A DNA stretch of 64,000 nucleotides from Sphagnum compactum. Lineage: Eukaryota. The notes under the pieces are model-generated. The model saw only the letters and a program-made list of their open reading frames with translations. It made no database searches and was not told the DNA's origin. Shown one piece after another: positions 2,605-41,501 of this stretch. Both the position numbers and the translations under genes were made by a program. Position 1 is the first letter of the stretch. Every line of letters begins with the position of its first letter. Location of the stretch: assembly GCA_965153455.1 (NCBI GenBank), contig OZ234493.1, positions 27,084,213-27,148,212 on the forward strand. The letters run 5' to 3'.

Positions 2605-3138
2605 CTTTCTCTCTTTGATTTTTCTCTTGGAAATTCACTTGGAAGCAACAAGGGTTTCAGTCTTTGACTGTTATTTCTACAAATGAATGGCCACAAGGCA
2701 TCCTTGCCGAAGCGGATTTATCAGTTGTACCAGAGGGGATTGACAGGATGACTACAGGCAGCACTATTTCAGCTGAGCTTGCAAAAGAACTCAAGCCTCG
2801 GTAAGGACACATCATGCTGCTCTGACACTTTGAGAGCAATTCTCATAAATACTATGAATTCACTCATTGTCATGTTATCTGCAAATTGTTTGTCGTGGAG
2901 ATTTCATAGATATATCACTTGGACCAGGAAGTGCTCAGAGATTTTTTAATTTATTTTTGGGTATGGAATCAGCTACCATTTTGCAGGGTCAGAGGGGGTC
3001 TTCTATGCTCGTGAACCTTACCTTAACACAGGGGTTACCCACACAACTCGCTTCATTGGACTTGCAGCTGTTGGCAATGACAAGAAACAGGTCTGTTCCC
3101 TGTTCTTTCTTGTGATTCTTCTTTTTTCGGGATATGTG

Positions 3139-3179
<41 letters not shown>

Positions 3180-5873
3180 TCCATGAATTCAACTGAGCTA
3201 GAGATGCTGGATTCACATACATAGTGGCGCCTTGTTGCTGCTGATTGCATTGCAGAAATTCCTTCATGCTTTGTCTCCAACACCAGCATCTGCCATGCTT
3301 TCTTCAGAATTGGCTGTAAGGCCTCCCAACACCACCATCTCCCCCTACAGGATGGGGACTCACAAGAGCTCAAATAACACAACTCCCTCACGTCCAGGGT
3401 TGAAGAGGGACTTAGTGCACAGTACCAGCATCACCACCACTACAGAGTCTCCTGCTAATGAAGGCCAGTATTGGAGATATGATGTCAATCAGGGAAAGAG
3501 ACAAAGGTCTGATGATGGTGGCAACAGGGTTTGCTTTGAGTTTGTTAAACAGGGCTCATGCTCACGTGGTGAAACCTGTAAATTCAGGCATGATCTCGGG
3601 AATGGAACTCCGATACCCAAGGGAGCTTGCTTTGATTTCATATCTAAGGGGAGATGTGAAAGGGGAGCTGATTGCCGGTACCGGCACTCTCTTGAGGAAG
3701 ACAAGAATGTGGGGGAGGGAGGGGATGCTCTTCCCCCTGGTGTATGCTTTGACTTCTTCAGGAAAGGACAATGCGAGAGAGGATCAGACTGCAGGTAATG
3801 CTTGGTGAATTTGAATACTTGCTTTGTAAGCTGACATTCAGTAGCAACCCGTCTTCAAGCCATGTTTGACAGGCCAGTTTATCCAAGCTAGTCTCTCATT
3901 TGTTGTTCTTTCTTTGTTGACTCTTGTGGAAATCCTGCCCACAAAACACTACCACATGCAGCAACATTGTAACCTCAATTTGTAGAGTAGGGTTTTCTGT
4001 CGGCATTTGCTCCTAGCTGATAGTTGCTGTTGATAAAGATGATGTCTTTGTTTTTGACCAGGTTCAGTCATAGCCTAGACAATGCACGGCCGATAAGGAC
4101 TCCTCGTCCACCGCCAGACGCCTGTTGGTTCTGTCTCTCCTCCCCTTCAATTGACACACACCTTGTAGTTTCTGTTGGTGACCACTGCTATTGTGCTATA
4201 GCCAAAGGCCCTTTGGTTGATAGCCATATTCTGATCCTCCCCATTGAGCATCACCCATCAACCATCTCACTGCCTGCTGATGCTGAATCTGAGCTGCAAA
4301 GGTACAAGGATGCACTACAGAAATGTTTCAAGACTCAAGGCAAGGCTACTGTGTTCTTTGAGCGCTACTTGCAGCTACGTGCTGGAACTCATGCACACCT
4401 TCAGGTAATTCATACCACCTGGCACCTTACCTTTTCTTCCAGTAGGATGTAACCCACTGGAAAATTTCTCTCTCTGCTAAAGTGGTAGGATGAGCAGAGT
4501 AATGGTTAAACCCTGCAAGGTCTGGAGCAAGAAAATATTCTTGGAAACCCAGAATTCCTGATAGAGTTGAAAATGCTTGCAGGCAGTCCCTGTTCCATTA
4601 CAAAAGGCATCAAGTGTGCGAAGTGCATTCGTGTCAGCTGCAAAGGAGGTGGGGTTTGAGTTTGATATCATTTGCCCATGTAAGAAGCAAAAATATCACC
4701 ATGCCTCTTCCCCTTATAAAACCTTTTGGGTGCATATAGTTTGAGCTGGTCACTTGTCACTCATTATACCATTGTGGGGAAGGCCCTCTTTATTGATGGT
4801 AGAACAGAGGTGTTTTCCTTTGGATCAGATATTCTTATCTGTGAAATCCTTGTTGATTAGAGACTAGCATTCATGACATTGACAGTGGGTGGGCTTGCCT
4901 TTGACTCTCTGCAGCTGACACAGATCCACAAGCCAGACAAGCATTGAAAGAGGTGGTTGGAGGAGGAGCAAACTTCTTTTTCGTTGAGCTGCCTGAGGGC
5001 ACCATACTGGCTCACAGACTTGCTCCAGGAGAGAAGTTGCCAATGCAGTTTGGTCGCGAGGTGAGGACATATGATCTTGCTGTTGGCTAGGTATTTTTTT
5101 TCGAGAATGGATTTTCTACCACATTCTTGTTGGATAACTTGTGCTTGCCTGATCTTATGCTCACTCATTTTCTCAGTGCATCTGCCCTCTCCTGTGTTTT
5201 GTACTCTCTTTCTGTTGAAGCTTACCCTCCCAAGCTTGTTGCTGTATGAATGAGGGTACTATTGACTTTTTTGGTTAGCTATTTCTCTTGAGTGCTAGCC
5301 AACCTCATGACCAAATCTTCCCATTGCCTTTGGAAATGGAACAGAAACTCGGGATCAGGTTTTGTATAATGGTTTGCCTTAATCCTTCCAAAGTGAAAAC
5401 TTATCTACATCCATCACCATTGGGAGCTGATAAAGTCAGTGGGTACTAGTCATGGCAGCTTGTGAGTGCCAATTTGTGATGAAGATGATGGTCTGACACT
5501 TCACATGAGCAACTCTCACAAGGTTATGACTGCACTGATTGTCATGGTACCTTCAAAGAGTTTTTGTGGAGATTACTCTGCAATCTCATGGACACATACC
5601 TGTATTATTGAACAGCAAACAATGAATTGTCAGGGTTGATGGGACCACCAACAGCAAAGATCACATTCACTGTTACGAGTCCTCCACGTCTATTTTCATA
5701 TTCTAATGTATTTGTCAGTTGTCCTGGATCTGCAGGTGATGGCTAGCTTACTAGGGACACCAGAAAGGGGAGACTGGAAAGCATGCAAGTTGGACATTGA
5801 AGAGGAGACATCCATGGCTGACCGATTCAAAGAGCAATTCCAAAGTTTTGATCTTATGCAATCACTGGTATAG
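1570..5873 (+). CDS. CWF19L1: CWF19-like protein 1 / zinc finger CCCH domain protein 64-like (inactive metallophosphoesterase N-terminus, CCCH fingers, CwfJ C-terminus)
   Basis: Exons 1570-1656, 1833-2106, 2307-2457, 2681-2800, 2973-3090, 3256-3794, 4062-4404, 4583-4679, 4915-5060, 5736-5873 join in frame. Motifs ILLCGDV, GPFDALLCVGQFF, DLFLSNEWP, KPRYHFAG, three C-x8-C-x5-C-x3-H fingers, CWFCLSSP, AKGPL, HAHLQAVP, QFGREV, DWKAC; TAG at 5871-5873. Confidence 0.93.
2458..2680 (+). other. U12-type (minor spliceosome) AT-AC intron
   Basis: 5' end ATATCCTC at 2458, branch-site-like TCTTTGAC at 2661-2668, 3' end AC at 2679-2680. Removal restores DLFLS-NEWP in frame. Confidence 0.9.
2568..2601. 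repeat. (CT)n microsatellite inside the U12 intron
   Basis: Direct reading of the ctctct run. Confidence 0.9.
3145..3177. repeat. (TG)n microsatellite, intronic
   Basis: Direct reading. Confidence 0.9.
5405..5550 (+). repeat. Dispersed intronic element, most complete copy (others at ~2811-2874 +, ~13285-13325 -, ~16555-16660 -, ~38128-38266 +)
   Basis: Shared core TGATGAA-x-x-TGATGGTCTGA-x-x-CTT and downstream TGACTGCACT-x-ATTGT, aligned by eye across copies. Confidence 0.7.
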
Positions 5874-6589
5874 TGTACTGCGATTCATTTTAGCTTTCAT
5901 GTCAAGCCATGCCTTAAGACAATTTTGATTTTTTTTACGTAGACACCCAAGAAAGTCTTGCCTCCAAAGAGCCCACTTGATTCACTCTCTGACAAAAAGG
6001 TTGAATGTGTTTTTTTCTTGTCATGTCTTTCCTTTCCTTTCCTTTCCTTTCCTTAGCTTGTTTGGACTCTTCCTCCTCAACAACAAAGGAAATTCAATCC
6101 ATTGTTGATAGCTTGTGTGTGGTCAAGTATCTTGGGTCCTTTAAGAAAAACTTTGATAATTGACAAAATTGGCAAAAATTTATCTGGGACAAGAAGAGGT
6201 TTAACTTAAGGTTTTAACTTTGTTAGAGGAACTTGGGTATGACTCAATTTGGGTATAATGATACAATAGTCCCGGAGCTTTTCTTCAACCGCCATTGTCC
6301 CTTAAAAAAACTGTGCAATTGCATTCTCTATGACTTCGTCAAATGAAGAAGAATCAAGTGTACAACCAAAGTCAAGTTTCAAAGTGCAATTACCTCCAAA
6401 AAACCCACATTTGAAATAGAAAATAAAGAGAGAATATAACACTAGAGCAAAGCCACCGACCAAATATATACACGTACGGGAATGAGTCGCATTTCACTCC
6501 TGGTTTTGAAAAAAATTCATTTGCCGTTGGATCTCCAATCTACCGGTGCAGAAGAATACACGATAGCAGTAATCTTTGCGGTGAATCAA

Positions 6590-6720
6590 CCGCCCCCGTC
6601 CCGTCCCGTCCCGCCCGCCTGCCCGCCCGCCCGCCCCTCGGCCCGCGGTTTTTTCTGCGGTTTGCCGTCGCGGTTGCTGCGCGGATCTCCCTCTCTCTCT
6701 CTCTCTCTCTCTCTGCAGCC
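6590..6720 (+). promoter_or_regulatory. GC-rich, CpG-rich promoter/5' leader of the RabA gene with (CT)n Y-patch
   Basis: CCGCCC repeats followed by a (CT)n run, about 600 bp upstream of ATG 7296. Confidence 0.5.
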
Positions 6721-7244: not shown

Positions 7245-8820
<1,576 letters not shown>

Positions 8821-10848: not shown

Positions 10849-13800
10849 CACAATGTTTGTTATAATGGGAGATGCTCCAAAGTAGTGGTTTAACAGAAAC
10901 ATGATCAACACAAGCCCTCCCCATCCAATGACATGAGTCACTCCAATAGTGGAGTCATTGAAGTGCAAGTGGTTGGTGTGATAGTAGAACATAATTGTTG
11001 ACATGTTTGGGATCAGAATCTGGGATGTCAGAAACCATAGGATTGGTCTGCAACAACAAAATGGGCAATAGGAAGAATGCTTGCATGAGAGCAACATAAT
11101 CCCATTCACTAACAACAAAAGAGCAAGGATTGATGAGCAGCATTTCAAGTTTTAAGATAGAGACGTGAGGTGAAAACCAAGATTTCAACAAACACAAAAT
11201 CCATATTGATGTCTGATGGATCTGTTTCTTCATGAGAATAGTGAGAGGGAGAGAAAGACACCTACTGCATTACAGTAGGCTGCCTAACTGCTTCCAAAAG
11301 AGATATAGTTGCTGACATGAGTCCACACTTCTGTAGCTCCCACTGACCTTGGAAAGGGACCAGCTCCTCATCACTTAGGTATTCATTTTGTTCATGTAAT
11401 TCTTGAGCCTATGATGCAGCAAACAATGTCATGATCGTGGATAAGATCTGGTACCTATTTTGGCAACTCCATCAATTGGCTTTCACAGAGCTTGGTCACA
11501 GTAAAGAAAACATCTCAGGAGAACTTAGAAAAATATACCTCAACAAGTTTGAGCTTTTCCATTTGTTCATTGATGTTGAACTTAGCTGAACCTGTTCTGT
11601 TTGTAATGACTGCCAAATTGGGACTAGGGAACTCAATGATCATTGACTCCTTTTCCAACCCATTGGATTCAATCTGGATCCAATCTTCTTCATCTTCTTC
11701 TATGAGACTAGACTCACATCCTTCCCTGACAATCTCAGTCTTGAGCCTCTCATTACTTTCTCTGACTTCTGTAAACACATAAGAGTACTGAAGGTAAGTC
11801 AGACATTGACAATATCAAAGGATCAAACTCTAGCCACCCTTTTGACAATATATATTGGCCATAGCAGAGCTCAAGTGTAAAGCTGTCTGAAAGAGCAAAT
11901 AACAGCAAAACTATGAAAGGTTTGAGCACCTGAACCAAGAGTATGGGTCACATGGATTTCTGTGCAGACAATATAAACATCCTTGTCACTCAGGTTCAAC
12001 TCAGTGGTGGTACTGAAGGCTTCTTCCTTGGTACAAACGATAATCGCATAATTACTGCTGACCAGTGATGAATCTCTTTCCACTTCTGTAACAACATCCA
12101 ATCCATACCGGGTAGGGCACTCCAAAATCCTTTCATTGGCATCATCCTCAATCCTGAAAGCCACTTGACCTAACATTCTCTTGTCCATCAACCCACAAGC
12201 CACTAGCTGCAGAAGGGGGAGTATTGAGAAAATAAGAAAGATTCCCTCCACGTTCAGGACTGATAGACCACCCAGCCCAGCGCTTACACTACCCACTATG
12301 GCTCCGCACACTGTCGCTAGCCATGAAATTGCTTGTAATGCTCCAGTGAACTCAAATCTGGCAAGGCATCATAACAATACCCCACCTTCCCCCATGCTGT
12401 TAATACTTTCAATCATACAGAAAGACTTTACTCACTTTTGCCCAGTTCTTAGGCTCCGTGCTAGTTTGCATGGAGCAATAGGAATTTGAGGAACCTAATT
12501 TGCATGGAGCAATAGTTTACCCTTAAAAAAGTGTTTTGATGAATTTCTTACATGCTCCGGATTTCATCTAGAACAAATGCCTGGACACAAGCATGAAGCT
12601 GCTGTGCTACCACCAATCAAAGAGTTACTACCCTAGCCATGCTAGGGTTTCAGGCTTTAGCTCAGAGACATGCTAGAGTAGGATCCAATTTATGCAGAGT
12701 TGAGAAACTCAGTTTTCTCTGATGTTTTTTGTGGACAGACCAGCTCACCACTCAATGAGAGAGTATTGCAAACTTTGCACCGAAAAAAGAGATCTTGGTA
12801 GTCATCCAATTACTATATGCAATTTATACCCTCATAGGCTACTCCTGAACTGGAAAATTCTACAACTCATAATCAATCCCCTGAGAATCTCTTTTGGGTA
12901 AGGAAGGATATGGGGAAGAAACCTTTCTTTATGTGCTGCAGTCTCTGCAACAATTGCATCCATGACAATGTCTGCCATCGCAGCTCCAACATTCTGAGTT
13001 GTAATAAGAAGCACAGTCAAATATGCAAAGGATGATGCCCTCAAAGCCACAAAGTGCGCAAGAACAAACCATGGTACAAATGACAGTACAACTGCAATGA
13101 TCAAATGCGGAACCCGCCTGCTCCCTCCAATTGGCACATAGTCTGATAATATGCTGTGTGTATTGCACAACCACAATCAACCAGATAGAAACCATGTTAA
13201 AACTGTCACAGGTTCATGTTTAATCTTGTGAAGCTGCGGATTTTTAGTTATATGATTATGCTCACTGGAAGATTAAGTTATTATTGGCTCTGTGACATCT
13301 GAGACCATTTCAAGCTTCATCTCGTCTCTGTGAGGTTTGGGAAATAAAGACCTACCCGTGGATCATTGGCTTCACACTCCAGGGAATGAATGCTGCAGAG
13401 ACCAGAAATTGAGAAACAGAAGGACTGGGTTTAAGCTCATCTTTCATTTGATAAAATATGGCCATCCATGCAAATGACCGGAATCCCTGCAAACAGGAAA
13501 AAAAAATGAAAATGAAAATAATTAGAGAGAAAGAGAGAGAGAGAGAGAGAGAGCTTGTGCTATCTATGGCTTGCTTTTTTCTTCTTTTTCCCCCCAAATT
13601 TGTGTTGTGGGTGGGTTGGCAATCATGCACACGAGGACTTTGCCAAATTTGGCTAGGCATTAGAGGGGGAAGCAGTTTAGGATTTCTCATATATTTTGGT
13701 GACTTGTTGGAACCTATTCTCTAAAATATGGCGACTTTAGATTTTAAAAGGAAATTTTTTTAGATTTATTTTTTCCTCATAATGTAACAACTTGGGCCCA

Positions 13801-15643: not shown

Positions 15644-17093
15644 CGCTCCCTTATTTATGAGAGCAAAATAGAAAAAAAAAAACCCTGAGCGATGGACATT
15701 GAAATCTTGAACTCATTGTATTTTGTATTCTTCATATTCATATAGTCCGTAAGTTCTTCATGCTCAATTTTTAAATGTGAGGTCAATGCACATTAATTGA
15801 CATTTTAATTCATTGGAATTTTTATTTCAGAATATATATAACCAACCAGTTTTGGCATAAAATTGTATTGAAAGAAATGAGTTTAGCAGCCTTGCTTTTT
15901 AAAAACTTTGACAGTTTCAGAAGGGGTTTGCGGAAAATAAACCCTCCATTTTGCAATGCACTCTGGTTCAATTGTGGCTATGATCATACTTCTGCATTTC
16001 AAAGCATCTTTCCAAGCAACTTGGATGCATTTCAAAGCATCTCAAGACAAAGACCTGCATCCATTAATTCAGCCACATTAATGCCATCCTTGAAAACCTG
16101 CAATCTTCTTTTCACCTCAATGCATTATTCCAGGGCAGAATAGCAACAGTTTTTTTTTTTGGGGACAACTTAAGTTGGTGACCTCATATATATGCCCTCT
16201 AATAAATGCAAGAACCAAGTCGCCACTCATAAGATGGTGAGGCAAGAGACTGCAAATGCTCTAAAACTATTTCTCCCCTTCCAAGTCTCTCAAATTCATG
16301 CATCATTGACCATTAAAACTCTGAGTCAAAATCAACCTTCCATGTGGCCACAGTAACACTGCACAGTACCAAGGGAAAGAAACAGCATGCCACAAGAAGT
16401 GCTGTATCAACCACAAAAAAAAAGACTTTTCTAAACAGGTTCAAATACAGCAGTGTTATGATAGACATATCTACAAGATTGCAGAGCAAAACCCCACTAG
16501 CATTTTGAAGGTCATGGATCCAGCATATCCACCAAAGCCAAACCAAAAGCCCCAACAATGAGTGCAGTCAAAAGTACTACTTACAAAGCATCAGACCATC
16601 ACCTTCATCATGGATAGTAGTGATGAGCTGCTATGCCTCTCCACTGTCAGTGAATGTAGACAATTGTATAACAATCTGCCAAAAATTTCAAGCAAACAGT
16701 TATACATTCATCTGCATCCTGAGTTTCTCTTGCTTTTCTATTGGATTTCCAGAAACAACAGGAAGACTCAGTCATGATGTTGGCGAACACTTAAGAGATG
16801 CAGCTAATCAAAGAGTCACTGGTAACCTCATTCAAGCAATAGCAAGCTTGCAAGGGCAAGCTTCATTTCATTTTAGCTTGTCCCTACCATTTACACAGGT
16901 TCATTGTAAACAGTGCATAACTGACCTAAGCTGAAGGAGGTCAGAAGCCTGGGTATTAAAAAAAGCCATAAGTCAGTGTCATGGCAGGATGAACAATTTC
17001 CACAGACAAATGAGATATTATGGATATTTTACAATGAAGGGGTGTAACAGAAAGAGGAAGGGGGACCGATTGGAATGAAGAGAGAGAGAGATA

Positions 17094-18929: not shown

Positions 18930-19188
18930 ACAAAATAGAAAGGGAAAATGATGATTGTTTTTTTTTATGTAGGTGTGAAGATTTTTTTCCGAGCCAATGG
19001 GTATTGTTGAATTTCTTTTCTTACTTATCTTTATTGAAGTAACAATCCAATGTGTAATACAAAATACAAAGGGAAAATGATGATGGTTTTTTTTTTAATG
19101 TAGGTGTGAAGATTTTTTCCAAGCCAATGGGATTGTTGAATTTGTTTTCTTACTTATCTTTATTGAAGTAACAATCCAATGTGTAATA
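18930..19188. repeat. Tandem duplication of about 128 bp
   Basis: AAAGGGAAAATGATGAT...GTAGGTGTGAAGATTTTTT...AACAATCCAATGTGTAATA occurs twice. Confidence 0.85.
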
Positions 19189-22100
19189 TTGAAATACCTT
19201 GGCAGCTTCAGCACAAATTTTTAATTTTGTCGAATTTTTCAAAAAATAATTAGTTTATTACGTCGAATAATTCAAAATTTATGGTCAGATTTGAGCCCTA
19301 GTCCTCTCCAATATTGTAGAAATGTGTGGAAACAACAAAAAAAAAACTTTTCGATAATGGAAGTAGTTTTATTATATTTAATTTGTAGTTGTTGAAATTT
19401 TCAAAATCAACATTAAATTATCAAATTAAATTCTCAAAATTAATTATTTGACAAAACCAAGGTATTACACTAACTATTTATAGACAAGGTTCTTGCATTC
19501 TATTATAATTAAAAGTTGATTTGAAACTTCTAAAAAAAAAAGGTCAAATAATTTATTTATTTAAAAAGGTATATAATTATTCTAAACATGCCCAACACCA
19601 CACATAGGTTTATGATTAAACACCTACATAGTGTAGAGTGAGGTCAACAATTAAATGTTCACAAGGTAACCCATTGTCGAGATTAACATCTATTACCAAA
19701 TGCCCAATTTTTTAAATGTGTTTGGTTTTTTTTCTCCACAAGGTTATAATGGGCTTATATTGTATTCGAGTTTTTTTTAACAAGGTCAAAATGAGTTTTT
19801 TTGTGTATTTGGTTATAGGTGTAAATCTGGGCAATTTAAGAAAATAGTGACCACTATTATGGTGCGGTAATGTTTTGTTAAGAGGGTTGAAGTGACCAGA
19901 CAAATATGTACAATTATCCATAAATGAAACAAGCGCAAAAAAGAAGGGCTTATTTATTTGTCTTTGGTTTTCGGTGTGTTGTAGGTTAATTTCTAAAATC
20001 ACCCATATTAACTTGAGTTAATCTATTGTTTAGTGATGGGGATTGTTAATTTAATGATAGAAAATGAGTTGAACATAAATGTGCAAAAACCTTAAATGTG
20101 TTCCCATGTTTAAATGTGAAGCAACACAATTAAACACAACAATAAGGAGCTTCGATTTTCAATAGTCAAGTCGAAACATTTATGATCATCTTAAAAGTCA
20201 CACCATTTTTGTAAACATTTCATCCCCGCCAAAACAAATCAACACATTTACAATTTAATTAAAGTTGATTACAATCAAACATCCACTTATCATATTCCTA
20301 ATCTCAAAAAATTTAACATGTTTGATCTAGCAAAAAAATATCCAAAATTAATTTCGATGTTTTTTTTGTCAAAAAATGAGTTCCTAATGCCATTGTTTTG
20401 AAAGCTAAAATAAATGATGACAAACCAAAGCTCAAAGTGGAAGGTGTTGAAAGTGTAATCAAGTATGAAAATAAATGTAGACATATTAAAACAAGTTCAA
20501 AAAGAGCATATTATAGTACCTTTACCATTTAAGCCATAATTAAAATAGTAATAATAATTTCAAAATTTCAAAATTTTTACTAACTACCTTGTCAAAAGTT
20601 TTACAAACTTAATTTTGAAAATTTGAAAATTATGGATCATTATGTTCATTTGTCCATGAGCACTTCTGATTTTAGCCATCACACATGAATTCTAATAATA
20701 AATATTTATTTGAAATCAGTACATGCCTTAAATCATTATAATTGATTGACTCATTTTGTGAGAGTCTAATTTAACAACATTTAAACTACTTATTTTTTTA
20801 ATACCCATATAATTACATAAATATTTATTGCAATAATATGCTAGATTATTATTTTTCATTTTTATTATATCCAATTTTTAAAAAAAATTGTGATTATAAG
20901 GCCAAAATGAAAAATAAAATTCAAAATGGTAAAAGTATTATGGTACATAAACAAGGATTGCAAAGAACAATACAAAAGTTGAGACAAAAGTTTTATTAAC
21001 AAGGGAAGAGGATGCTGCAATAGTTGCATGAATTTTTGCTATACAAAAAATAAGATTATCAATATGAACATAGCAAAACTCAAACCTTGACCACCACCAT
21101 TTAAAATTTTAATATTAGGGAATAATTAATGATATTAATTGAAACATTGACACCCATAATTGACTATTTATTGTCTTGAGCATAAAAATTACCATCACAA
21201 CAAGATTTCCAAATGACACAAAAAAAACCTTAAATGTAAGCTCAAACATGAAAACAAGATTATAAATAATTCCTAATAAAGAGCCTAGTGGTTACCTTTG
21301 TGGCCTTCACAATTACTAAATGTGCAAAAAAAATAAATGGATTATAATTACATTATATAAGTATTCAAAAATTAAAAATAAAATTAAAAAATTCATTTTT
21401 TTATAAAAATAGTGGTTTAAAAATGGTAGTTACACCATGCAACAAAATTATTGCTTAGTATGTAATAATATTATCTTAAGAAGGAAGGAAAAAACACACA
21501 TTTTTTCAAACCAGTGAAAGAAAAACAAAAAAGACAAAGGTAGTTTACAAATAGTTATTTTACCTTATAACATAATTATCACCTAACATAAATATTTTTC
21601 AATTAAAAAATAAGTGAAATTTTTTCAACAAGGTGGTCAACTAAAAAAAAATTAAAATAAGTCCATAAGTACCTTCAAGTTTTCTTATTACAGTAACAGC
21701 TTTTTAGGTTCAACAAAAATTATATTATTTTTTAAATGCCAAATTTTAAAAAAATTATGGTCACTTCCTGTTGAATTTTTTAAAACTATTTTTTATTGAA
21801 GCAAAAATTTCATAGGATTCTTGAATTATTTTTTAAAAATTTCCTTTGCCACTAAACACCCCTTAAAGAGAATCCAACACTTCTTACAAGCTTACTAGTG
21901 TAACCTTACAAAGAACTGCATTGTTTTGCCATGGTTTTTCATTTTTTTCCCTTTTTGAATTTGTGTATGCAATAAATGTAAAAAATGAACCATGTTTTTC
22001 AATGCCTAATGGTATGCCAATGGTTAGTGCCATATTTTTTACAAGGGAAGATCTAGCATCAAAACTTGTGCCATGAATCAAAACATTTGTGTTGAACATT

Positions 22101-28714: not shown

Positions 28715-31600
28715 AAATTTTGGCTTGGACCAAATTTCATGTTTTTACAACTTAACCAACAAGTTTCAAAAGATTAAACACATTTTTTAAGTGTATATTT
28801 GTCTTTTATGGATGGTAATATATGTCATTTCGAGATGTTGCTAACTATATGTTTCTAAGTGTATTTTTCTTAGTCTATGTTTGTAAGATGCATGCTCCTA
28901 ACATGATCTCTTAGCATTTTGTTTTTCATGTGGGGCATATTTATGTTGCAACCACTATGAACTCTACAAGGTCCTATTTTTTAACTTCACAACGAGTTCT
29001 TACATTTAAAAGTCCATGTTTTGAATGATCATGTTCCTGTGCAAATTCTTTTTCCTTTCATTCTTTATGTTTCGTTCATGTTACATTGTTTTTTTATTAT
29101 TAGGTTTAATTGTAGTAAACTTGTTTCTATGATGTTTTGTAAGATATTTTCCATCAATTATAAGCGATGCCTCTATAATATTACAAACAAACAATGTCGT
29201 GTTTAAAAATGTGGTGGCTAAAAACCAGTGTTATCTATTATTGAACATTCATTAAAGTTTTGGTAATGTCTAGGTTTTTAGGTTTCCATCATGTTTCATA
29301 CCCGATTTTCAAAACCCTTGATTCACAACACAATGTGTCGTGTGTTCCCAACATTATTGTGAGTTTTGGACTTTATGTTTCGTTGGATGTTTCTCAAATT
29401 CAATGAACATCCGCTTGTTCCAAGAGGTTGTGATTTAAAACTATTATACATAGGGATTGTCCTAGTATGGTTTCGGAAAACATTGTTTTCATTTTTATGT
29501 TTTTCTTGTTTGGAGGGTTTGATATTTCTGTAGTTTTAAAAATATGTTTTTTCATGATTCTGTCATGTTTCTTTCACGTTCCATACAGGTTTGTTACATG
29601 CTTCTTACAACTTTCTTCCATGTTTTTCCAATTTTGTATAACAAACTTTTGCGTTTTTTTTGTTCATGTTTCCAATATTCTAATGTTTTGTAAGTTGTGA
29701 AACATGGTTTGTGGTGTTTTTATAAAAACATTACCATGTTGTTACCATGTTTCAGAGGTTTTGAAACATGTTTAATCAAAAAAAAATTCATATTCCAAAG
29801 GTATGTTCTAGATGACTTTTTGAATCAATACAACAAAGTCACTGATGTACCAAGTTACAATACTTCACCCAATGTTCGAAGGTAATTTGAAGTTAACCCT
29901 CAAATTGTCTAGGAACACTCAAGTTGTGGGAGGAGCACAACAATAGGATAACATGACTTTGTTCAACAAAAACATATTTGAAATAATGGTCAATAGATAG
30001 TAAGTGGATGTTTGAAGATAATGTGTGGAAAGACCACATCATTTCTTTCAAACGTCCACCTTCCTCCTTCTATTATTCATTATAAAGTCTTTCTAATAGA
30101 GAACCATAAACATAAAAAGATCTATGTACAAAAAACTACTTAACAACATGGGTTAAAACCTGAAGCAAATGGTATCTGAAAATTTTCATTCAACTGGATA
30201 GTCAAAACTTGTTTATAGAAATAGAAAACATGGTATGAACCTTGAGCCAAACGTTATTTGAAAACTACTAATCACTGAATAGTTGAAACATGTGTACAAA
30301 AATTTAAAACTTACAAAGACTTTGAAACATGTAACTAGAGCATGTTTCGAATGGTACATTCCATCAAATCACCTCAACTGGATTGTTGCAATTTTTTTTT
30401 AAAGAAACAAAAAAATTGGAAACCCAAACAACGACAAGAGAAATGATCAAGTAAAGAACAAAAATACAACAATAAACGACAAGATAGTGCAAACCCAACA
30501 ATGCGGGAAATGAACACGATACAAGTGGATTGTTGCAAAGAAGTGTTTACATAAACAAAAAGAACAGAAATCCAAACAATAAGCGAGAATCGAACAAGTA
30601 GATAAAAAGAAGACAATGACAAAAAACATAACAATGCAAATTGAAACAAATAATGCAAAAAATGAACACGATACAAGTGGATTGTTACAAAGAAGTGTTT
30701 ACATAAATTTTTTAAAATAGAAACCTAAACGATAAACGAGAATCAAACAAGTAGAGAATAAGAAAATAACGATAAAAAACAAAATAACACAAAAAATGAA
30801 CATGATAGAAAAAGTAAACTCGTTATCTTTGCGAGCAAATATTTGGCATGCAACTTGTCAACCTTTGACACAACATGTGTCAATTGCCAGAAACAAAATA
30901 AAAACAAATATCCATTTACATACATCAAGAAACTTCAATAAGGTTAAACAAGACCTGTTACTGGTTTCTAAAACTGTTTTTGCACAATACTATTGTGTTT
31001 CAAATGGAAAACTGAAAGTGAAGAAAATTGCAGATAAGAGCATGATGATGATCTAATGTGGGTGAAAAGATAAAACTTGCGTAATGCCACCATGAGCTCT
31101 TTTTGTTATCAAAACCCTAACTAAACGTCTAACGAGGGAACATTGATGAAGATGTTAAAGTTTGGTAGAAAAATACACGACGACAATGCAAAGTTGAAAA
31201 AAGGTTTAAAACATCATGAATGGGGATTGCATAGAGGAACATGGAAGATGGGCGGATGGGGCTGAAACATAGCTCCCGAAATGTTACATGTTTCGGTGGG
31301 ATATGTTTCAAAGGCTCAGGCTATTCGAGCATTGAAACACATGTTGGGCTGCTTGTCAAAACTTGACATGTTTCGATTGGTGGTAAGTTTTGAGGTTCTT
31401 GTTTCGATGCTCATGTTTCATGGTGCGTGATTTTTGACAAGCGAAAACGAATGCCATGCCACCACCAAAACACGACATGTTTCTATGTCGGTTTGTTTCG
31501 AGGCCCTCGCTGCTCATGCGTGGAAACCCGTGCCGAGTCGGCTCGAAGCGAGCAACACATTGTAAACCCCATGAAATCAAAAAGTATTTAGCCAAAAAAA
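28715..31600. mobile_element. Degenerate transposon-like relic rich in AAACATG/CATGTTT motifs
   Basis: Weak inverted termini (TTTTGGCT...ATTTCATG..TTTACAA versus TTGTAAA..CATGAAAT...AGCCAAAA), many CATGTTT motifs and internal direct repeats. Confidence 0.35.
30375..30810. repeat. Degenerate tandem repeat, unit about 130-150 bp
   Basis: AAATGAACACGATACAAGTGGATTGTT-x-CAAAGAAGTGTTTACATAAA at ~30508 and ~30660, with partial flanking copies. Confidence 0.75.
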
Positions 31601-35100: not shown

Positions 35101-38100
35101 TCACCGTGGGGAGTTTCAACGTTGTTATGACACTACTAAAGCGTATGCATGAACCCATTAGAGACCATACTTTTGTGCTGAACCTTGTGTAATTGGATAG
35201 TTGTTGGAGTTTCGCAGTAGCAGTTCTGAGTCCAGCTTTTATGCCATATTTGATCATCTTGCTTATTACTTGGATCTGTGTTGTATTCACATGTCCCTCT
35301 TTGCTCTCCTATGTTGGGATTGCCAATAAACAAAGAGATAGGGTGCAGGCTGCTGGAGAAGGATCCGTATCATCTAACCTGCATGCCTTTGCATATCGGT
35401 GCTGCTTTGGAGCTTGGGCGTAAGAATGAGCTCTTTCTTAGAGCTCACAACTTAGTACAAGAATACCCAAACAAGTAAGAGTGCTACTTCATGCCAGATT
35501 TTCATTTGCAAACCTAATACTTGGCCATTTGCATTTCACATGGTTCAGAATGGTGGTTACAGAAGCTCTTCATTTCTATGTGGTTTCTGCTAATCTCCTG
35601 GGCCACTAAATCTGTGCCAAACCAGGAGCTAAATTTGTGCAGTGTCTCATGTTTTAAGGCTTCTGGTCACAAACCTTCAGCAGGTGTTTCCTTCCTTTTA
35701 ACTGTTTTGGGGTCACCACTATTGTGCTTCGTGCTTTGACTAGTAATGTCACCATGCTGTGTGCAGAGCAATAGCATGGTTTGCTGTGGGGTGCTACTAC
35801 TATTGCATTCGGCAGTTTGATCATGCACGCCGCTATTTCTGGTATGACTTCTTTTTGCTTTTTGTTGCTGTTGGCTTTTACTTCAGAATATTTTCATTCA
35901 TCTAAGTTCTTTCCAAACCTGAATACATGACTCCACCATCATGGAGTGGTAAAACATTGGAAGAGTCCTTCCCAGAATTATTCCACGATATATCTCAAAG
36001 TAGGTTTGCACAAGTTATGTCAAGACTTCTGTAATTTTGGGGAATCATGTAATTATTCAGGTGGATGTTCTAAGTAATTAACAAGCTTACAAAGCGCTGG
36101 AGGTGGTCGAGACTTTTCTGAACTTGTTGATGCATGACAGTAGGAAATGATTTTGTTGTAGTTCCTTCTTGGAGTCATGGGTCATTGCAACTATAAGAGG
36201 GCCTGGCTGATATGCAAGTATCATGCAGCAAAGCAACAACTTTGGAGGGGTCTTTTGCACCAGCCTGGCTTGGTTTTGGCAATGCATATGCAGCACAGGA
36301 TGAGAGTGACCAGGCGATGGCTGCATATCGAACAGCTGCCCGTCTCTTTGCAGGGTACTATATTGGCTTTGTCCTCTACTATTTATGGGTTCATAATGGT
36401 TTATGGCCCATTCTGACTTTTCAGAATTTTTTTGAACTTTTGTGATGCAATTTGCTAATAGAAGTTGCCTTCATGGTCACAGTAAGTGTGCATTGTCCAC
36501 CCTAACATTCTTCATGATTTTCCAATTGGGGATGTTAATTCTTTCTTGTTCAGTAAAACTGCTCTCCAAGCAGAGCTAAAATGTCTTATTTGTGCTTCTT
36601 TGTACGCAGTTGCCATTTACCAGCTCTTTGCATTGGGATGGAGTATCTACGTACTAATAACCTCACTCTTGCTGAACAAGTATATCAATACTTTCTCACT
36701 GGCTTCAAGTTGTTGTGTACATGAATTGTTGTCTCTCTCCTTGTGGACAGACTGCACCATCTGTGCCATTGTGCTTGGTGATTAAACTTGCATACATGGG
36801 GTGCTGCAGTTCCTCACGCAGGCCAAATCCATCTGCTCAACTGATCCAGTTGTGTACAACGAATTGGGTGTGATGGCATTCCGCAATAAAGAGTAAGCTA
36901 ATCAATTGGATCAGGAAAATAAGAGATCCAGATTGCCATTGGTTTTATGATCCCTCGATGTGGAACTGTAAATCTTTGGTAAATGATACAGCTGATATAT
37001 CAGTGCAGTTGTCCTTGGATCTGTTTACCACTTTTCTGCATAGAATCCATTATGACCAATACATCATGAAATCCGTGATCACTGTTTTGAACTATTCTGA
37101 GAATTCCAGGATTTAGTTTGGACTTTGTATGTGCCAGCCTGTGAGTTTGCAATATCTTTGGTGGGCACCATGCTTTGTGAAAGTGTGCAACTTGATGTAA
37201 AGGAAACAGCCAGGATCCTCTCTTTCTATTCTCTGCAACTGACTCCACAAAGTTTCAATTTGGGATTGATTGTTGCAGTTATGAGGCAGCAGCACGCTGG
37301 CTCCGCAAGGCTCTCTCACTTGCACCTCCTCCCCTTACAGAAGCCTGGGAACCAACAGTTGTCAACTTGGCCCATACTCTACGCAAGCTCAAGTATGATA
37401 TGTGTGATGTGTCCATTTTTTTGCCTCTTTATGCTTGTATGCTGAAAGTATCATATGTGTGATCTATCCCTTTGCCTGCCTCTGTATGCTTGTATGCAAG
37501 TCTTTGCCTCCAGTGTGCACCAGATTTGTGACTCAAATAACCAGTCTTCCACCTCTATGTCTAACAAGTGGATGATAATTGCAGGTCTTATGTGGAGGCG
37601 ATAAGCATGTATGAGAAGGCACTTGCTCTATATCCCAAGGGTGCCTCCACATATGCTGCTCTTGGTTTCACTCACCATCTCCAGGTATTTTCATGCTCCT
37701 ACTGTTATCTATGTAGCAAGCACCTCAGTGCATAGCTATCAACCTTTTCTGCTGTTATTGGGTCCCTTCATTATTCTCAGCTGAAAAAAGGGTCCCTCAC
37801 AAGGCACAAAATATACTTCTTCCATTCATCAATGATGTGCTCCAATAATACATTCAAGGTGCAGGAGGCCCCTACCACTACCAGCTATGTAGGCCTCTGT
37901 ATGCACAGATGCTTGCTATTGGAGGGGCAAGCTGAAATGAAATGGAGGTTGCCCTCATAACCTTGATGCAGTTTGATGAGGATACTGTTGACTTTTTTTT
38001 CAGTAGCTATGCCCAAGTACTGACTGACATTGTGCCTGCATCTTTGGATTGCTTCTGGATAGAGTAACAGAAACTTGGTGCAAATTATGTTTCATTGTTT

Positions 38101-38964
38101 ACCCTGAATTTTGAGCAGATTGTTATATACATATCCATGCCCTCTGTAGGGAGCTGATGCGGTTTGGGGAGTAATGGCATCTAGTAATTGCCATTTGTGA
38201 TGAACATGATGGTCTGACACTTTGTGACTGACAATCACAAGGTCGTGACCACATTCATTCATGATCAGTTTGTTTTGGTTTGACCAGAACTGGCAGAACA
38301 TTTGTCTGGTTACATTACATGCTTTTGTGGACCTTTCTCTGCAATCAGATTGCTATTCTTTGTTTCAGCTTGCATTCTTTCCTTGCTGCTGTATCTTGAC
38401 TACTGTTATACCTTGTTGTTGCAGGGCAGCACAGGCAAAGCCATTGACTTCTACCACAAGGTATGTTGGTTCTGAAGAGGGTTAGCTTTGCTCCTGAGAA
38501 TCTGTTTGACTGAGTGATGTACAGTACAATGAAGCTAAAGAATTTGAGTTCTTATCCGTGTCCTTTTTTATTAGAACATTTGCCAAACCTTCCTTAGCAT
38601 ATGTCCAGTTGCAGTGCTCAAAACAGCTAGAAAGTTTATTCTATTAAGAACATGACACATGGTAAATAGTTATAACAAGGGCCTCTCTATATTTCTCATG
38701 TCAGTTGGAGCTATCTTGGTAGTCACATCTAGTGGGTATGTCTTTTCTCTGGTCCATTTGTGAGTTAGGGCTGCAATATGTTCTTCTGCATCACTGCTAG
38801 GCTGTCCCTGATGAGGAGTATATGGTGACATGCAGGCTCTTGGATTGAAGTCAGATGACACTTTCACAGCTGAGATGCTAACAACAGCTCTAACAGAGGA
38901 GTGCACACACCTCAGCTCAGCACCAGACTCTCAATTTTTTTCACTGGGTGTTGGCCTCCCTTGA
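32188..38964 (+). CDS. APC6: Anaphase-promoting complex subunit 6 (CDC16), TPR protein
   Basis: 17 GT-AG exons: 32188-32325, 33036-33146, 33539-33673, 33851-33924, 34083-34122, 34321-34366, 34576-34655, 34961-35142, 35349-35474, 35767-35841, 36229-36354, 36610-36679, 36810-36892, 37279-37392, 37585-37684, 38425-38460, 38836-38964. Motifs KHLYSSAIFFADK, LLEKDPYH, AWFAVGCYY, ESDQAMAAYRTAARLF, WEPTVVNLAH. Confidence 0.95.
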
Positions 38965-41415: not shown

Positions 41416-41501
41416 ATTGGAATTGGTTTTGGTAAGACAACTTTAAGGTCCAAAAAACAACTTATGGAACTTAAAGTTGTCTTACCAAAACCAATTCCAA
41501 T
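41416..41501. repeat. Long near-perfect inverted repeat (hairpin)
   Basis: ATTGGAATTGGTTTTGGTAAGACAACTTTAAG pairs perfectly with CTTAAAGTTGTCTTACCAAAACCAATTCCAAT. Confidence 0.9.

What the first reader, a model, noticed from the sequence alone, without database searches (positions are those of the whole stretch)
5405..5550. Dispersed structured element found five times, always sense to its host gene, with a box C/box D-like core
Seen: related sequences in CWF19L1 intron 4 (~2811-2874), CWF19L1 intron 9 (this copy), FBT intron 2 (~13285-13325, minus), downstream of the Elongin C stop (~16555-16660, minus) and APC6 intron 15 (~38128-38266). All five match host transcription direction, and I noticed none in the AT-rich spacers. 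The three best copies keep RTGATGA-N10-CTGA (5476/5493; 38197/38214; 16611/16594 minus). This copy has a second CTGA at ~5535 closed by a short CAA/TTG stem. Established: RUGAUGA and CUGA are the box C and D motifs of C/D snoRNAs, which bind Snu13/L7Ae, and such RNAs are often intron-encoded in sense orientation. Inference: this may be an undescribed family of intron-borne structured RNAs or snoRNA-derived mobile elements, or an old TE with strand-biased retention.
Basis: partly seen in the sequence, partly recalled or inferred. Interest (0 to 1): 0.75.

Follow-up and report, generated by a model that had tools for sequence, protein, structure and literature searches.

The report
Moss Penelope-parasite retroelement, sense in genes
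The "snoRNA-like" repeat is an old fragment of an abundant, non-coding jumping element of a moss that borrows the enzymes of a Penelope-like retrotransposon, lands almost always in the same direction as the host gene, and appears to be copied from a circular RNA.

Summary
Four of the five claimed copies are real; 13285-13325 is not a member. They are longer than described. They are decayed, 5'-truncated copies (75-82% identical) of a 544-nt non-coding retroposon with thousands of genomic copies. Young copies have a fixed 3' end and 8-24 bp target-site duplications (58 of 72). The element shares a ~200-nt structured domain and a terminal hairpin with the 3' UTR of a young Penelope-like element (PLE) that has an N-terminal GIY-YIG (Chlamys type). 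It is therefore an MRC1-like non-autonomous PLE, not a snoRNA. 'Box C' is one strand of a helix, and box D is absent from 72 of 78 young copies. The sense bias holds genome-wide: 20 of 20 loci with an identified gene, and 66 of 69 by flank skew, against 60-67% predicted from target sequence. Of 29 young copies that reach the unit start, 28 run on head-to-tail (up to 2.55 laps). Laps of one insertion share rare variants (14 of 28; 0.93 expected). Two RNA runs assemble the unit as a closed loop. A circular RNA template is the best explanation but is unproven, and no canonical ribozyme was found.

The parts
5216..5601 (+). 5'-truncated old copy of the 544-nt non-autonomous Penelope-like element (unit positions ~160-539); contains the finding
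   Evidence: 81.5% identity over aligned columns to a young unit; no TSD recognisable
5292..5495 (+). Structured domain shared with the 3' UTR of the autonomous Chlamys-type PLE (basal helix plus four hairpins)
   Evidence: (E 1e-25 to 1e-27)
5303..5309 (+). 5' strand of the basal helix that pairs with the 'box C' letters
   Evidence: alignment A1 columns 16-22
5427..5433 (+). Decayed copy of the conserved hammerhead-like CUGAUGA word (loop of the third hairpin)
5476..5496 (+).
5564..5583 (+). 3'-terminal hairpin, also present just before the fixed 3' end of the autonomous PLE; likely RT recognition site (inferred)
   Evidence: folds of PLE tail, young unit tail and window tail
5061..5735 (+). 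Host intron of the CwfJ-domain (CWF19L1-like) gene; donor at 5061 (or 5091), acceptor ending 5735
   Evidence: Pfam CwfJ_C_2 halves either side; splice signals read
2813..2924 (+). Short old 3' fragment (unit ~427-535) in an apparent intron 2801-2986 of the same gene
16460..16913 (-). Old 5'-truncated copy (unit ~137-540), downstream of a minus-strand Skp1_POZ-like gene
37826..38363 (+). Old, nearly one-lap copy (unit ~35-540)

Best explanation
The finding is a dead fragment of a 544-nt non-coding retroposon that parasitises a Chlamys-type Penelope-like element (PLE) of the same moss genome. SHOWN: retroposon anatomy; homology of unit 223-434 and of the terminal hairpin to the PLE 3' UTR; the same insertion signature in both; near-exclusive sense orientation in genes; head-to-tail copies whose laps come from one template sequence. 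INFERRED mechanism: (1) host Pol II transcribes longer-than-unit copies that sit sense in introns; (2) a one-unit RNA is released and closed into a circle by an unknown step; (3) the PLE protein binds the shared domain and terminal hairpin, nicks the template strand of a transcribed gene opposite TT, and primes at the U-run after the hairpin; (4) reverse transcription goes round the circle and stops at variable places, giving 0.2-2.55 laps between 8-24 bp TSDs; (5) copies longer than one lap can seed new circles. Sense insertion in genes would keep a promoterless element transcribed. My odds: PLE parasite about 0.9, circular template about 0.65.
For: High copy number: 2131 first-look candidates; 6 profile hits in 400 kb of evenly spaced genome (some may be PLE tails). 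TSDs in 58 of 72 young insertions, first two letters T in 90% and 84% of 50 sites. PLE partner: shared domain E 1e-25 to 1e-27 in 12 of 12 PLE loci; RT look-alikes RVT_1/HTH_animal; GIY-YIG upstream of the RT, E 3-4e-4, just under cut-off; fixed 3' end, T next in 11 of 12, clear TSDs in 7 of 12. Six both-side changes between PLE and young unit keep two helices paired. One template: 28 of 29 young copies reaching unit position 1 run on; 27 of 27 junctions carry the same T6; 14 of 28 last-lap variants recur in the upstream lap against 0.93 expected; old copies cross the junction too; no long array among the top 40 hits. RNA: runs X1 and X2 each give one 573-nt contig closing on itself (543+30), depth 53.9 and 15.5 against 2-5 for their other listed contigs. 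A circular template for PLE tandems was proposed in PMC4209133 (passage). Sense: 20 of 20 loci with a Pfam exon, of 50 examined; 66 of 69 by skew; 26 of 26 neighbouring copies co-oriented.
Against: No known ribozyme (Rfam; motif scan). The hammerhead words are in permuted order without helix II, so how a circle would be cut and closed is unknown. A closed contig can also arise from collapsed tandem DNA or pre-mRNA; no raw reads were laid, and X5 and X8 show about 3- to 10-fold more depth at the 3' end, as truncated genomic copies would. 14 last-lap variants are not shared and 17 are upstream-only; I attribute them to post-insertion mutation, untested. 6 of the 14 shared variants are C>T or G>A, which can recur. 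Among 33 mostly decayed copies covariation does not exceed shuffles (287 of 500); the structure rests on one PLE-versus-unit comparison. The whole-unit minimum-energy fold was not supported between age classes (1 both-side, 11 one-side, 14 breaking changes). The RT has no Pfam or PDB sequence hit. Unit 1-220 matched no PLE head I fetched. 3 of 69 own loci, and 1 of 6 sampled hits, have A-rich flanks.
Confidence: 0.65

Rival explanations
1. Same PLE parasite, but the template is linear: the RT re-initiates on the same RNA, or copies a longer-than-unit (pLTR-type) transcript, with no covalent circle.
For: Partial tandems are standard for PLEs, and non-autonomous Chlamys often form head-to-tail multicopies without canonical hammerheads (PMC8557442, passages). 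Four of the five longest own young insertions start at unit 217-239, which could be a transcription start in a pLTR. No ribozyme was found.
Against: No pile-up of 5' ends at the junction (1 of 29) and an invariant T6 junction without added bases. A purely linear two-lap lineage would let the laps drift apart, yet several haplotypes are shared by both laps. One copy has 2.55 laps.
Confidence: 0.25
2. Sub-rival on orientation: insertion is only mildly biased, and antisense or intergenic copies are removed by selection or deletion.
For: Target T-richness alone gives 60-67% on the T-rich strand. Efficient selection in a haploid-dominant plant is plausible (own knowledge). Only fixed copies in one assembly were seen.
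Against: The bias is already 55 of 57 in young copies. AT-rich DNA holds 40% of predicted targets but 0 of 69 loci. In Chlamydomonas mutation-accumulation lines all new Chlamys insertions were intronic, more than expected (10.1101/2022.05.23.493040, passage; orientation not given in the passages seen).
Confidence: 0.3
3. A Pol III SINE with a T tail, mobilised by an RTE or L1 LINE.
For: T-starting TSDs and a T tail are features of Au-like SINEs (PMC6007223). LINEs with long ORFs exist on the chromosomes.
Against: No defined 5' end; internal T6 runs at unit 214-219 and 331-336; no tRNA, 5S or 7SL match; no T excess at -10 (0.36; the peak is at -5); 8 chromosomal LINE loci share no sequence with the unit, whereas the PLE does.
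Confidence: 0.04
4. Family of intron-encoded box C/D snoRNAs or snoRNA-derived retrogenes.
For: The motif is present in 3 window copies and in 22 of 79 old copies; sense, intronic location; weak Rfam C/D matches (E 0.26-6).
Against: Box D position is CTGT in 72 of 78 young copies; 'box C' pairs in the basal helix and is replaced in the PLE; C/D scores of 13-19 bits against gathering scores of 36-50; retroposon ends and TSDs.
Confidence: 0.02

Closest known systems
Non-autonomous Chlamys Penelope-like elements, e.g. MRC1 and Chlamys-N4 of Chlamydomonas reinhardtii (PMC8557442 passages and section 15; PMC9940879 passages; 10.1101/2022.05.23.493040 passages)
   Same: Non-coding; 3' similarity to an autonomous N-terminal-GIY-YIG PLE; 5' truncation; head-to-tail multicopies; no canonical hammerhead; intron bias.
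   Different: Moss host; ordinary T-starting targets with clear 8-24 bp TSDs instead of (CA)n or (C)n microsatellites; near-absolute sense orientation; sequence evidence that laps come from one template; closed-loop RNA contigs.
Non-LTR retrozymes of animals (PMC7229834 and PMC7761336 passages; 10.64898/2026.07.22.740005 first fifth of the text)
   Same: Works alike if my model holds: small structured non-coding unit, head-to-tail copies, long TSDs, PLE-derived, circular RNA template.
   Different: No type I hammerhead; 544 nt rather than 150-450; plant host; genic and sense, whereas the 2026 preprint reports vertebrate retrozymes enriched between genes and excluded from introns.
Plant LTR retrozymes (as summarised in PMC7229834 and PMC7761336 passages)
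   Same: Genome-encoded, non-coding, longer-than-unit plant retroelements with circular RNA.
   Different: No type III hammerhead; GC about 44% rather than above 55%; variable 5' ends and 8-24 bp TSDs rather than LTRs with 4-bp TSDs.
Au-like T-tailed SINEs of the RTE clade (PMC6007223, first sixth and passages)
   Same: 3' stem-loop, T tail, TSD starting with T.
   Different: No Pol III head, no fixed 5' end, no T stretch at -10, and the partner is a PLE.

Membership tests
Box C/D snoRNA | Conserved box C and box D in functional members | tested here: not met
   0 of 78 young and 22 of 79 old copies have both
Box C/D snoRNA | Box C free to form a kink-turn with box D next to a terminal stem | tested here: not met
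   Letters pair in a basal helix; the PLE homologue has other letters with the pairing kept
Box C/D snoRNA | Match to a known family | tested here: not met
   Rfam
Box C/D snoRNA | Guide complementary to rRNA or snRNA | not tested
   No rRNA at hand; the quoted 10-mer is not the family's common spacer
Non-autonomous Chlamys PLE | 3' similarity to an autonomous PLE of the same genome | tested here: met
Non-autonomous Chlamys PLE | Partner has GIY-YIG N-terminal to a PLE-type RT | tested here: met
   GIY-YIG E 3-4e-4, 21-22 bits against cut-off 22.6, upstream of the RT in L328 and L329; RT look-alikes; PLE-type RT motifs are recalled; no tree was built, so Chlamys versus Naiad rests on host lineage and on earlier notes
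Non-autonomous Chlamys PLE | 5' truncation and partial or head-to-tail tandems | tested here: met
Non-autonomous Chlamys PLE | Microsatellite target bias (common, not universal) | tested here: not met
   TSDs are ordinary T-starting sequence
Non-autonomous Chlamys PLE | Mobilisation by the partner protein | not testable with these tools
   Inferred from the shared 3' domain and the same insertion signature
Retrozyme (LTR or non-LTR) | Self-cleaving hammerhead in each unit | tested here: not met
   No Rfam ribozyme hit; core words present but permuted and without helix II
Retrozyme (LTR or non-LTR) | Abundant circular monomer RNA | tested here: inconclusive
   Closed contigs in 2 of 4 runs laid, junction contigs in the other 2; contigs cannot prove a covalent circle
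Retrozyme (LTR or non-LTR) | Longer-than-unit genomic copies between TSDs | tested here: met
Pol III SINE | Structural-RNA-derived head with a defined 5' end and no internal terminator | tested here: not met
RTE-related SINE | T stretch about 10 nt upstream of the TSD and 3' end shared with a LINE | tested here: not met
   (50 sites; only 8 LINE loci compared, all L1/Tx1-like by my reading)

The most novel reading that the evidence does not exclude
A land-plant genome encodes an abundant 544-nt circular RNA retroposon that needs no canonical ribozyme. It is opened either by a permuted hammerhead-like fold (all core words are conserved between the element and its PLE partner) or by host processing. 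Its PLE helper inserts strand-specifically into transcribed genes, so that the promoterless element is always read in sense. This would be a new route to retrozyme-like circles and transcription-coupled, strand-specific retrotransposon targeting.
Probability: 0.3. Interest if true: 0.8.

Novelty: new variant of a known kind. Interest (0 to 1): 0.55.

Why it matters
How Penelope-like elements make their partial tandems and retain introns is an open question. A circular template was proposed in 2014 (PMC4209133), and in 2021 PMC8557442 still called for an in vitro system. This family is young (97-99.7% alike), small, present in RNA libraries of many studies, and has an identified helper, so the circle hypothesis can be tested directly. 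The near-absolute sense orientation in genes is unusual for a retroposon and is not explained by target sequence. As a snoRNA candidate the finding has no value.

Tried and rejected
Rfam at gathering threshold on the window: 0 hits. E-value scans of the young unit, the PLE tail and the window copy: nothing near threshold. Motif scan for hammerhead and hairpin cores on both strands of the circularised unit: none in canonical order (that unit had two flank letters at its end, corrected). Twister and HDV-like folds were considered by eye from recalled consensus and did not fit. An apparent long-range covariation and the 255/423 change within the family look like CpG decay and were discarded. A cleavage site at unit 264 would give 5' ends piling up at 265; none of 35 unselected copies start between 240 and 320. 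Back-splice or lariat origin: the junction resembles a 3' splice site, but no donor lies in register; not supported and not tested on reads. LINE partner: RVT_1 search gave mostly hits with a short RT span that I read as Gypsy-like; endonuclease hits lay mostly on small contigs; 8 chromosomal LINE loci share nothing with the unit. Unit 1-220 against the PLE heads in L325-L330: no match. The unbiased genome sample is 400 kb only, so the copy number is rough. No TSD was found for the window copy itself. Literature searches found no paper on this family, on Sphagnum circular retroelements, or on sense-oriented PLE insertion. The library lacks most subscription journals and Repbase/Dfam. I did not open the supplements of PMC8557442, whose family list may include moss entries.

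Full report
1. Observation. The motifs are at the stated coordinates. Self-comparison shows four related stretches: 2813-2924(+), 5216-5601(+), 16913-16460(-) and 37826-38363(+). The three long ones are 63-66% alike by blastn. The claimed copy at 13285-13325 is not found by blastn, nhmmer or the family profile; its score is reached by 0.1% of 1919 random 70-mers. The finding lies in an intron between two CwfJ_C_2 exons on +.

2. A high-copy retroposon. A search of the own genome (382 Mb) gave 2131 first-look candidates; all 40 scored ended at or within 10 bases of one point. Young copies are 97-99.7% alike, have a fixed 3' end followed by TT, and variable 5' ends. TSDs of 8-24 bp were found in 58 of 72 young insertions from the own genome and from metagenome contigs. 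The unit is 544 nt and folds better than shuffles (z -4.6 sense, -3.7 antisense). Forty evenly spaced 10-kb stretches held 6 profile hits and reversed decoys 0. That suggests a few thousand to about ten thousand copies by my arithmetic, and may include tails of the partner. RNA holders are moss, wetland, soil and plant metatranscriptomes (24 rows, 19 studies), so the host is a moss, probably a peat moss (inference).

3. Not a snoRNA. No Rfam family reaches threshold. The box D position reads CTGT in 72 of 78 young copies. Both boxes occur in 0 of 78 young and 22 of 79 old copies. 'Box C' is the 3' strand of a basal helix (section 4).

4. The partner. Earlier notes on this genome pointed to Chlamys-type Penelope-like elements, and I tested the lead. 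Unit 223-434 matches the 3' UTR of an RT-coding element in 12 of 12 loci (E 1e-25 to 1e-27). That element has the same terminal hairpin, a fixed 3' end followed by T in 11 of 12, clear TSDs in 7 of 12, and T-rich flanks in 11 of 12. Its RT has no Pfam or PDB sequence hit. Its Atlas look-alikes include clusters with RVT_1 (16% of members) and HTH_animal (14-84%). A GIY-YIG domain lies upstream of the RT in two copies (E 3-4e-4, slightly under cut-off). Between the PLE and the young unit, six base pairs in two helices change on both sides and stay paired, four of them in the helix that holds 'box C'. This is a single comparison; across 33 mostly decayed copies covariation does not exceed shuffles. 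Eight chromosomal LINE loci share nothing with the unit, and the RTE signature (T stretch at -10, PMC6007223) is absent. Craig et al. describe non-autonomous Chlamys such as MRC1 with 3' similarity and head-to-tail multicopies (PMC8557442), so the element belongs to that kind.

5. Head-to-tail copies from one template. Of 57 distinct young insertions, 29 reach unit position 1 and 28 of them continue into the unit's 3' end; the longest has 2.55 laps inside one TSD pair. All 27 junctions examined carry the same T6. Old copies also cross the junction, with different letters. Internal T6 runs argue against Pol III. In 23 multi-lap insertions (L002 left out because its upstream piece is an older copy), 14 of 28 last-lap variants recur in the upstream lap, against 0.93 expected if laps came from different molecules; 8 of the 14 are not C>T or G>A; 17 variants are upstream-only. 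No long array appears among the best 40 hits. In RNA runs X1 and X2, one 573-nt contig closes on itself at the junction with depth 53.9 and 15.5; X5 and X8 have junction contigs of depth 211-5297 but are 3'-enriched. Contigs cannot distinguish a circle from collapsed tandem DNA or pre-mRNA. A circular template, as proposed for PLEs in PMC4209133, is the simplest reading (about 0.65). Re-initiation on the same linear RNA is the main rival.

6. Ribozyme. None canonical. The words CUGAGUC, GAAA and CUGAUGA, and a possible helix I, are conserved in element and PLE, but the order is permuted and helix II cannot form. PMC8557442 lists similar 'half cores'. 5' ends do not pile up at the putative site. 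The element therefore fails retrozyme membership while plausibly working like one.

7. Orientation. Of 50 loci examined with three ORFs per strand, 20 had a Pfam hit, and in all 20 (19 genes) the element is sense; five have hits on both sides. Flanks are T-rich in element orientation in 66 of 69 own loci (55 of 57 young) and 42 of 50 metagenome loci; no own locus has flank GC under 0.356, although 34% of sampled DNA is under 0.35. A target matrix from 50 sites predicts only 60-67% on the T-rich strand and puts 40% of targets in AT-rich DNA. 26 of 26 neighbouring copies are co-oriented. In Chlamydomonas all new Chlamys insertions were intronic, which favours targeting; selection against antisense copies is not excluded. 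These loci are best hits, not a random sample; the small unbiased sample gave 5 of 6.

8. Verdict. The finding itself is ordinary decayed mobile DNA and the snoRNA idea is wrong. The family is a new variant of a known kind: an MRC1-like PLE parasite in a moss, with strict sense targeting and signs of a ribozyme-less circular template. Ten literature searches found no description (see Tried and rejected). Other agents of this scan met the same family independently; their notes were used as leads only. Papers seen: PMC8557442 (passages, section 15), PMC4209133, PMC7229834, PMC7761336, PMC9940879, 10.1101/2022.05.23.493040, 10.1101/2022.07.19.500677 (passages), PMC6007223 (first sixth and passages), 10.64898/2026.07.22.740005 (first fifth); no supplements.

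Noticed in passing
G000 small contigs C61, C325, C339 and others (L247-L261): The best LINE endonuclease hits lie on small AT-rich contigs and look like arthropod LINEs (my reading); the assembly probably contains non-moss contigs.
   Followed up: partly
L302-L309: Chromosomal L1/Tx1-like LINEs end in a short GC-rich stretch without poly(A); three of eight are followed by the same other repeat, suggesting a preferred target.
   Followed up: no
L023, L026, L041, L052, L170 (unit 217-239): 5' ends of long copies cluster just upstream of the PLE-shared domain, with none between 240 and 346 in upstream laps; could be an RT stop pattern or a transcription start.
   Followed up: partly
unit junction, e.g. 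L031:1490-1515: The junction resembles a 3' splice site (branch-like word, pyrimidines, YAG) in young and several old copies; no donor in register.
   Followed up: partly
L002, L028, L064: Young copies have inserted inside or directly beside older copies of the same family, in the same orientation.
   Followed up: no
L325:1341-2803 and 6030-6701: A PLE copy sits inside a tandem repeat with a period of about 583 bp.
   Followed up: no
window 7888-8236 and 19008-19233: Short related repeats in two places of the window, unrelated to this element.
   Followed up: no
window 41416-41501: An 86-bp near-perfect inverted repeat.
   Followed up: no
window 30375-30825: Local tandem duplication of about 150-bp period, 73% alike.
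   Followed up: no
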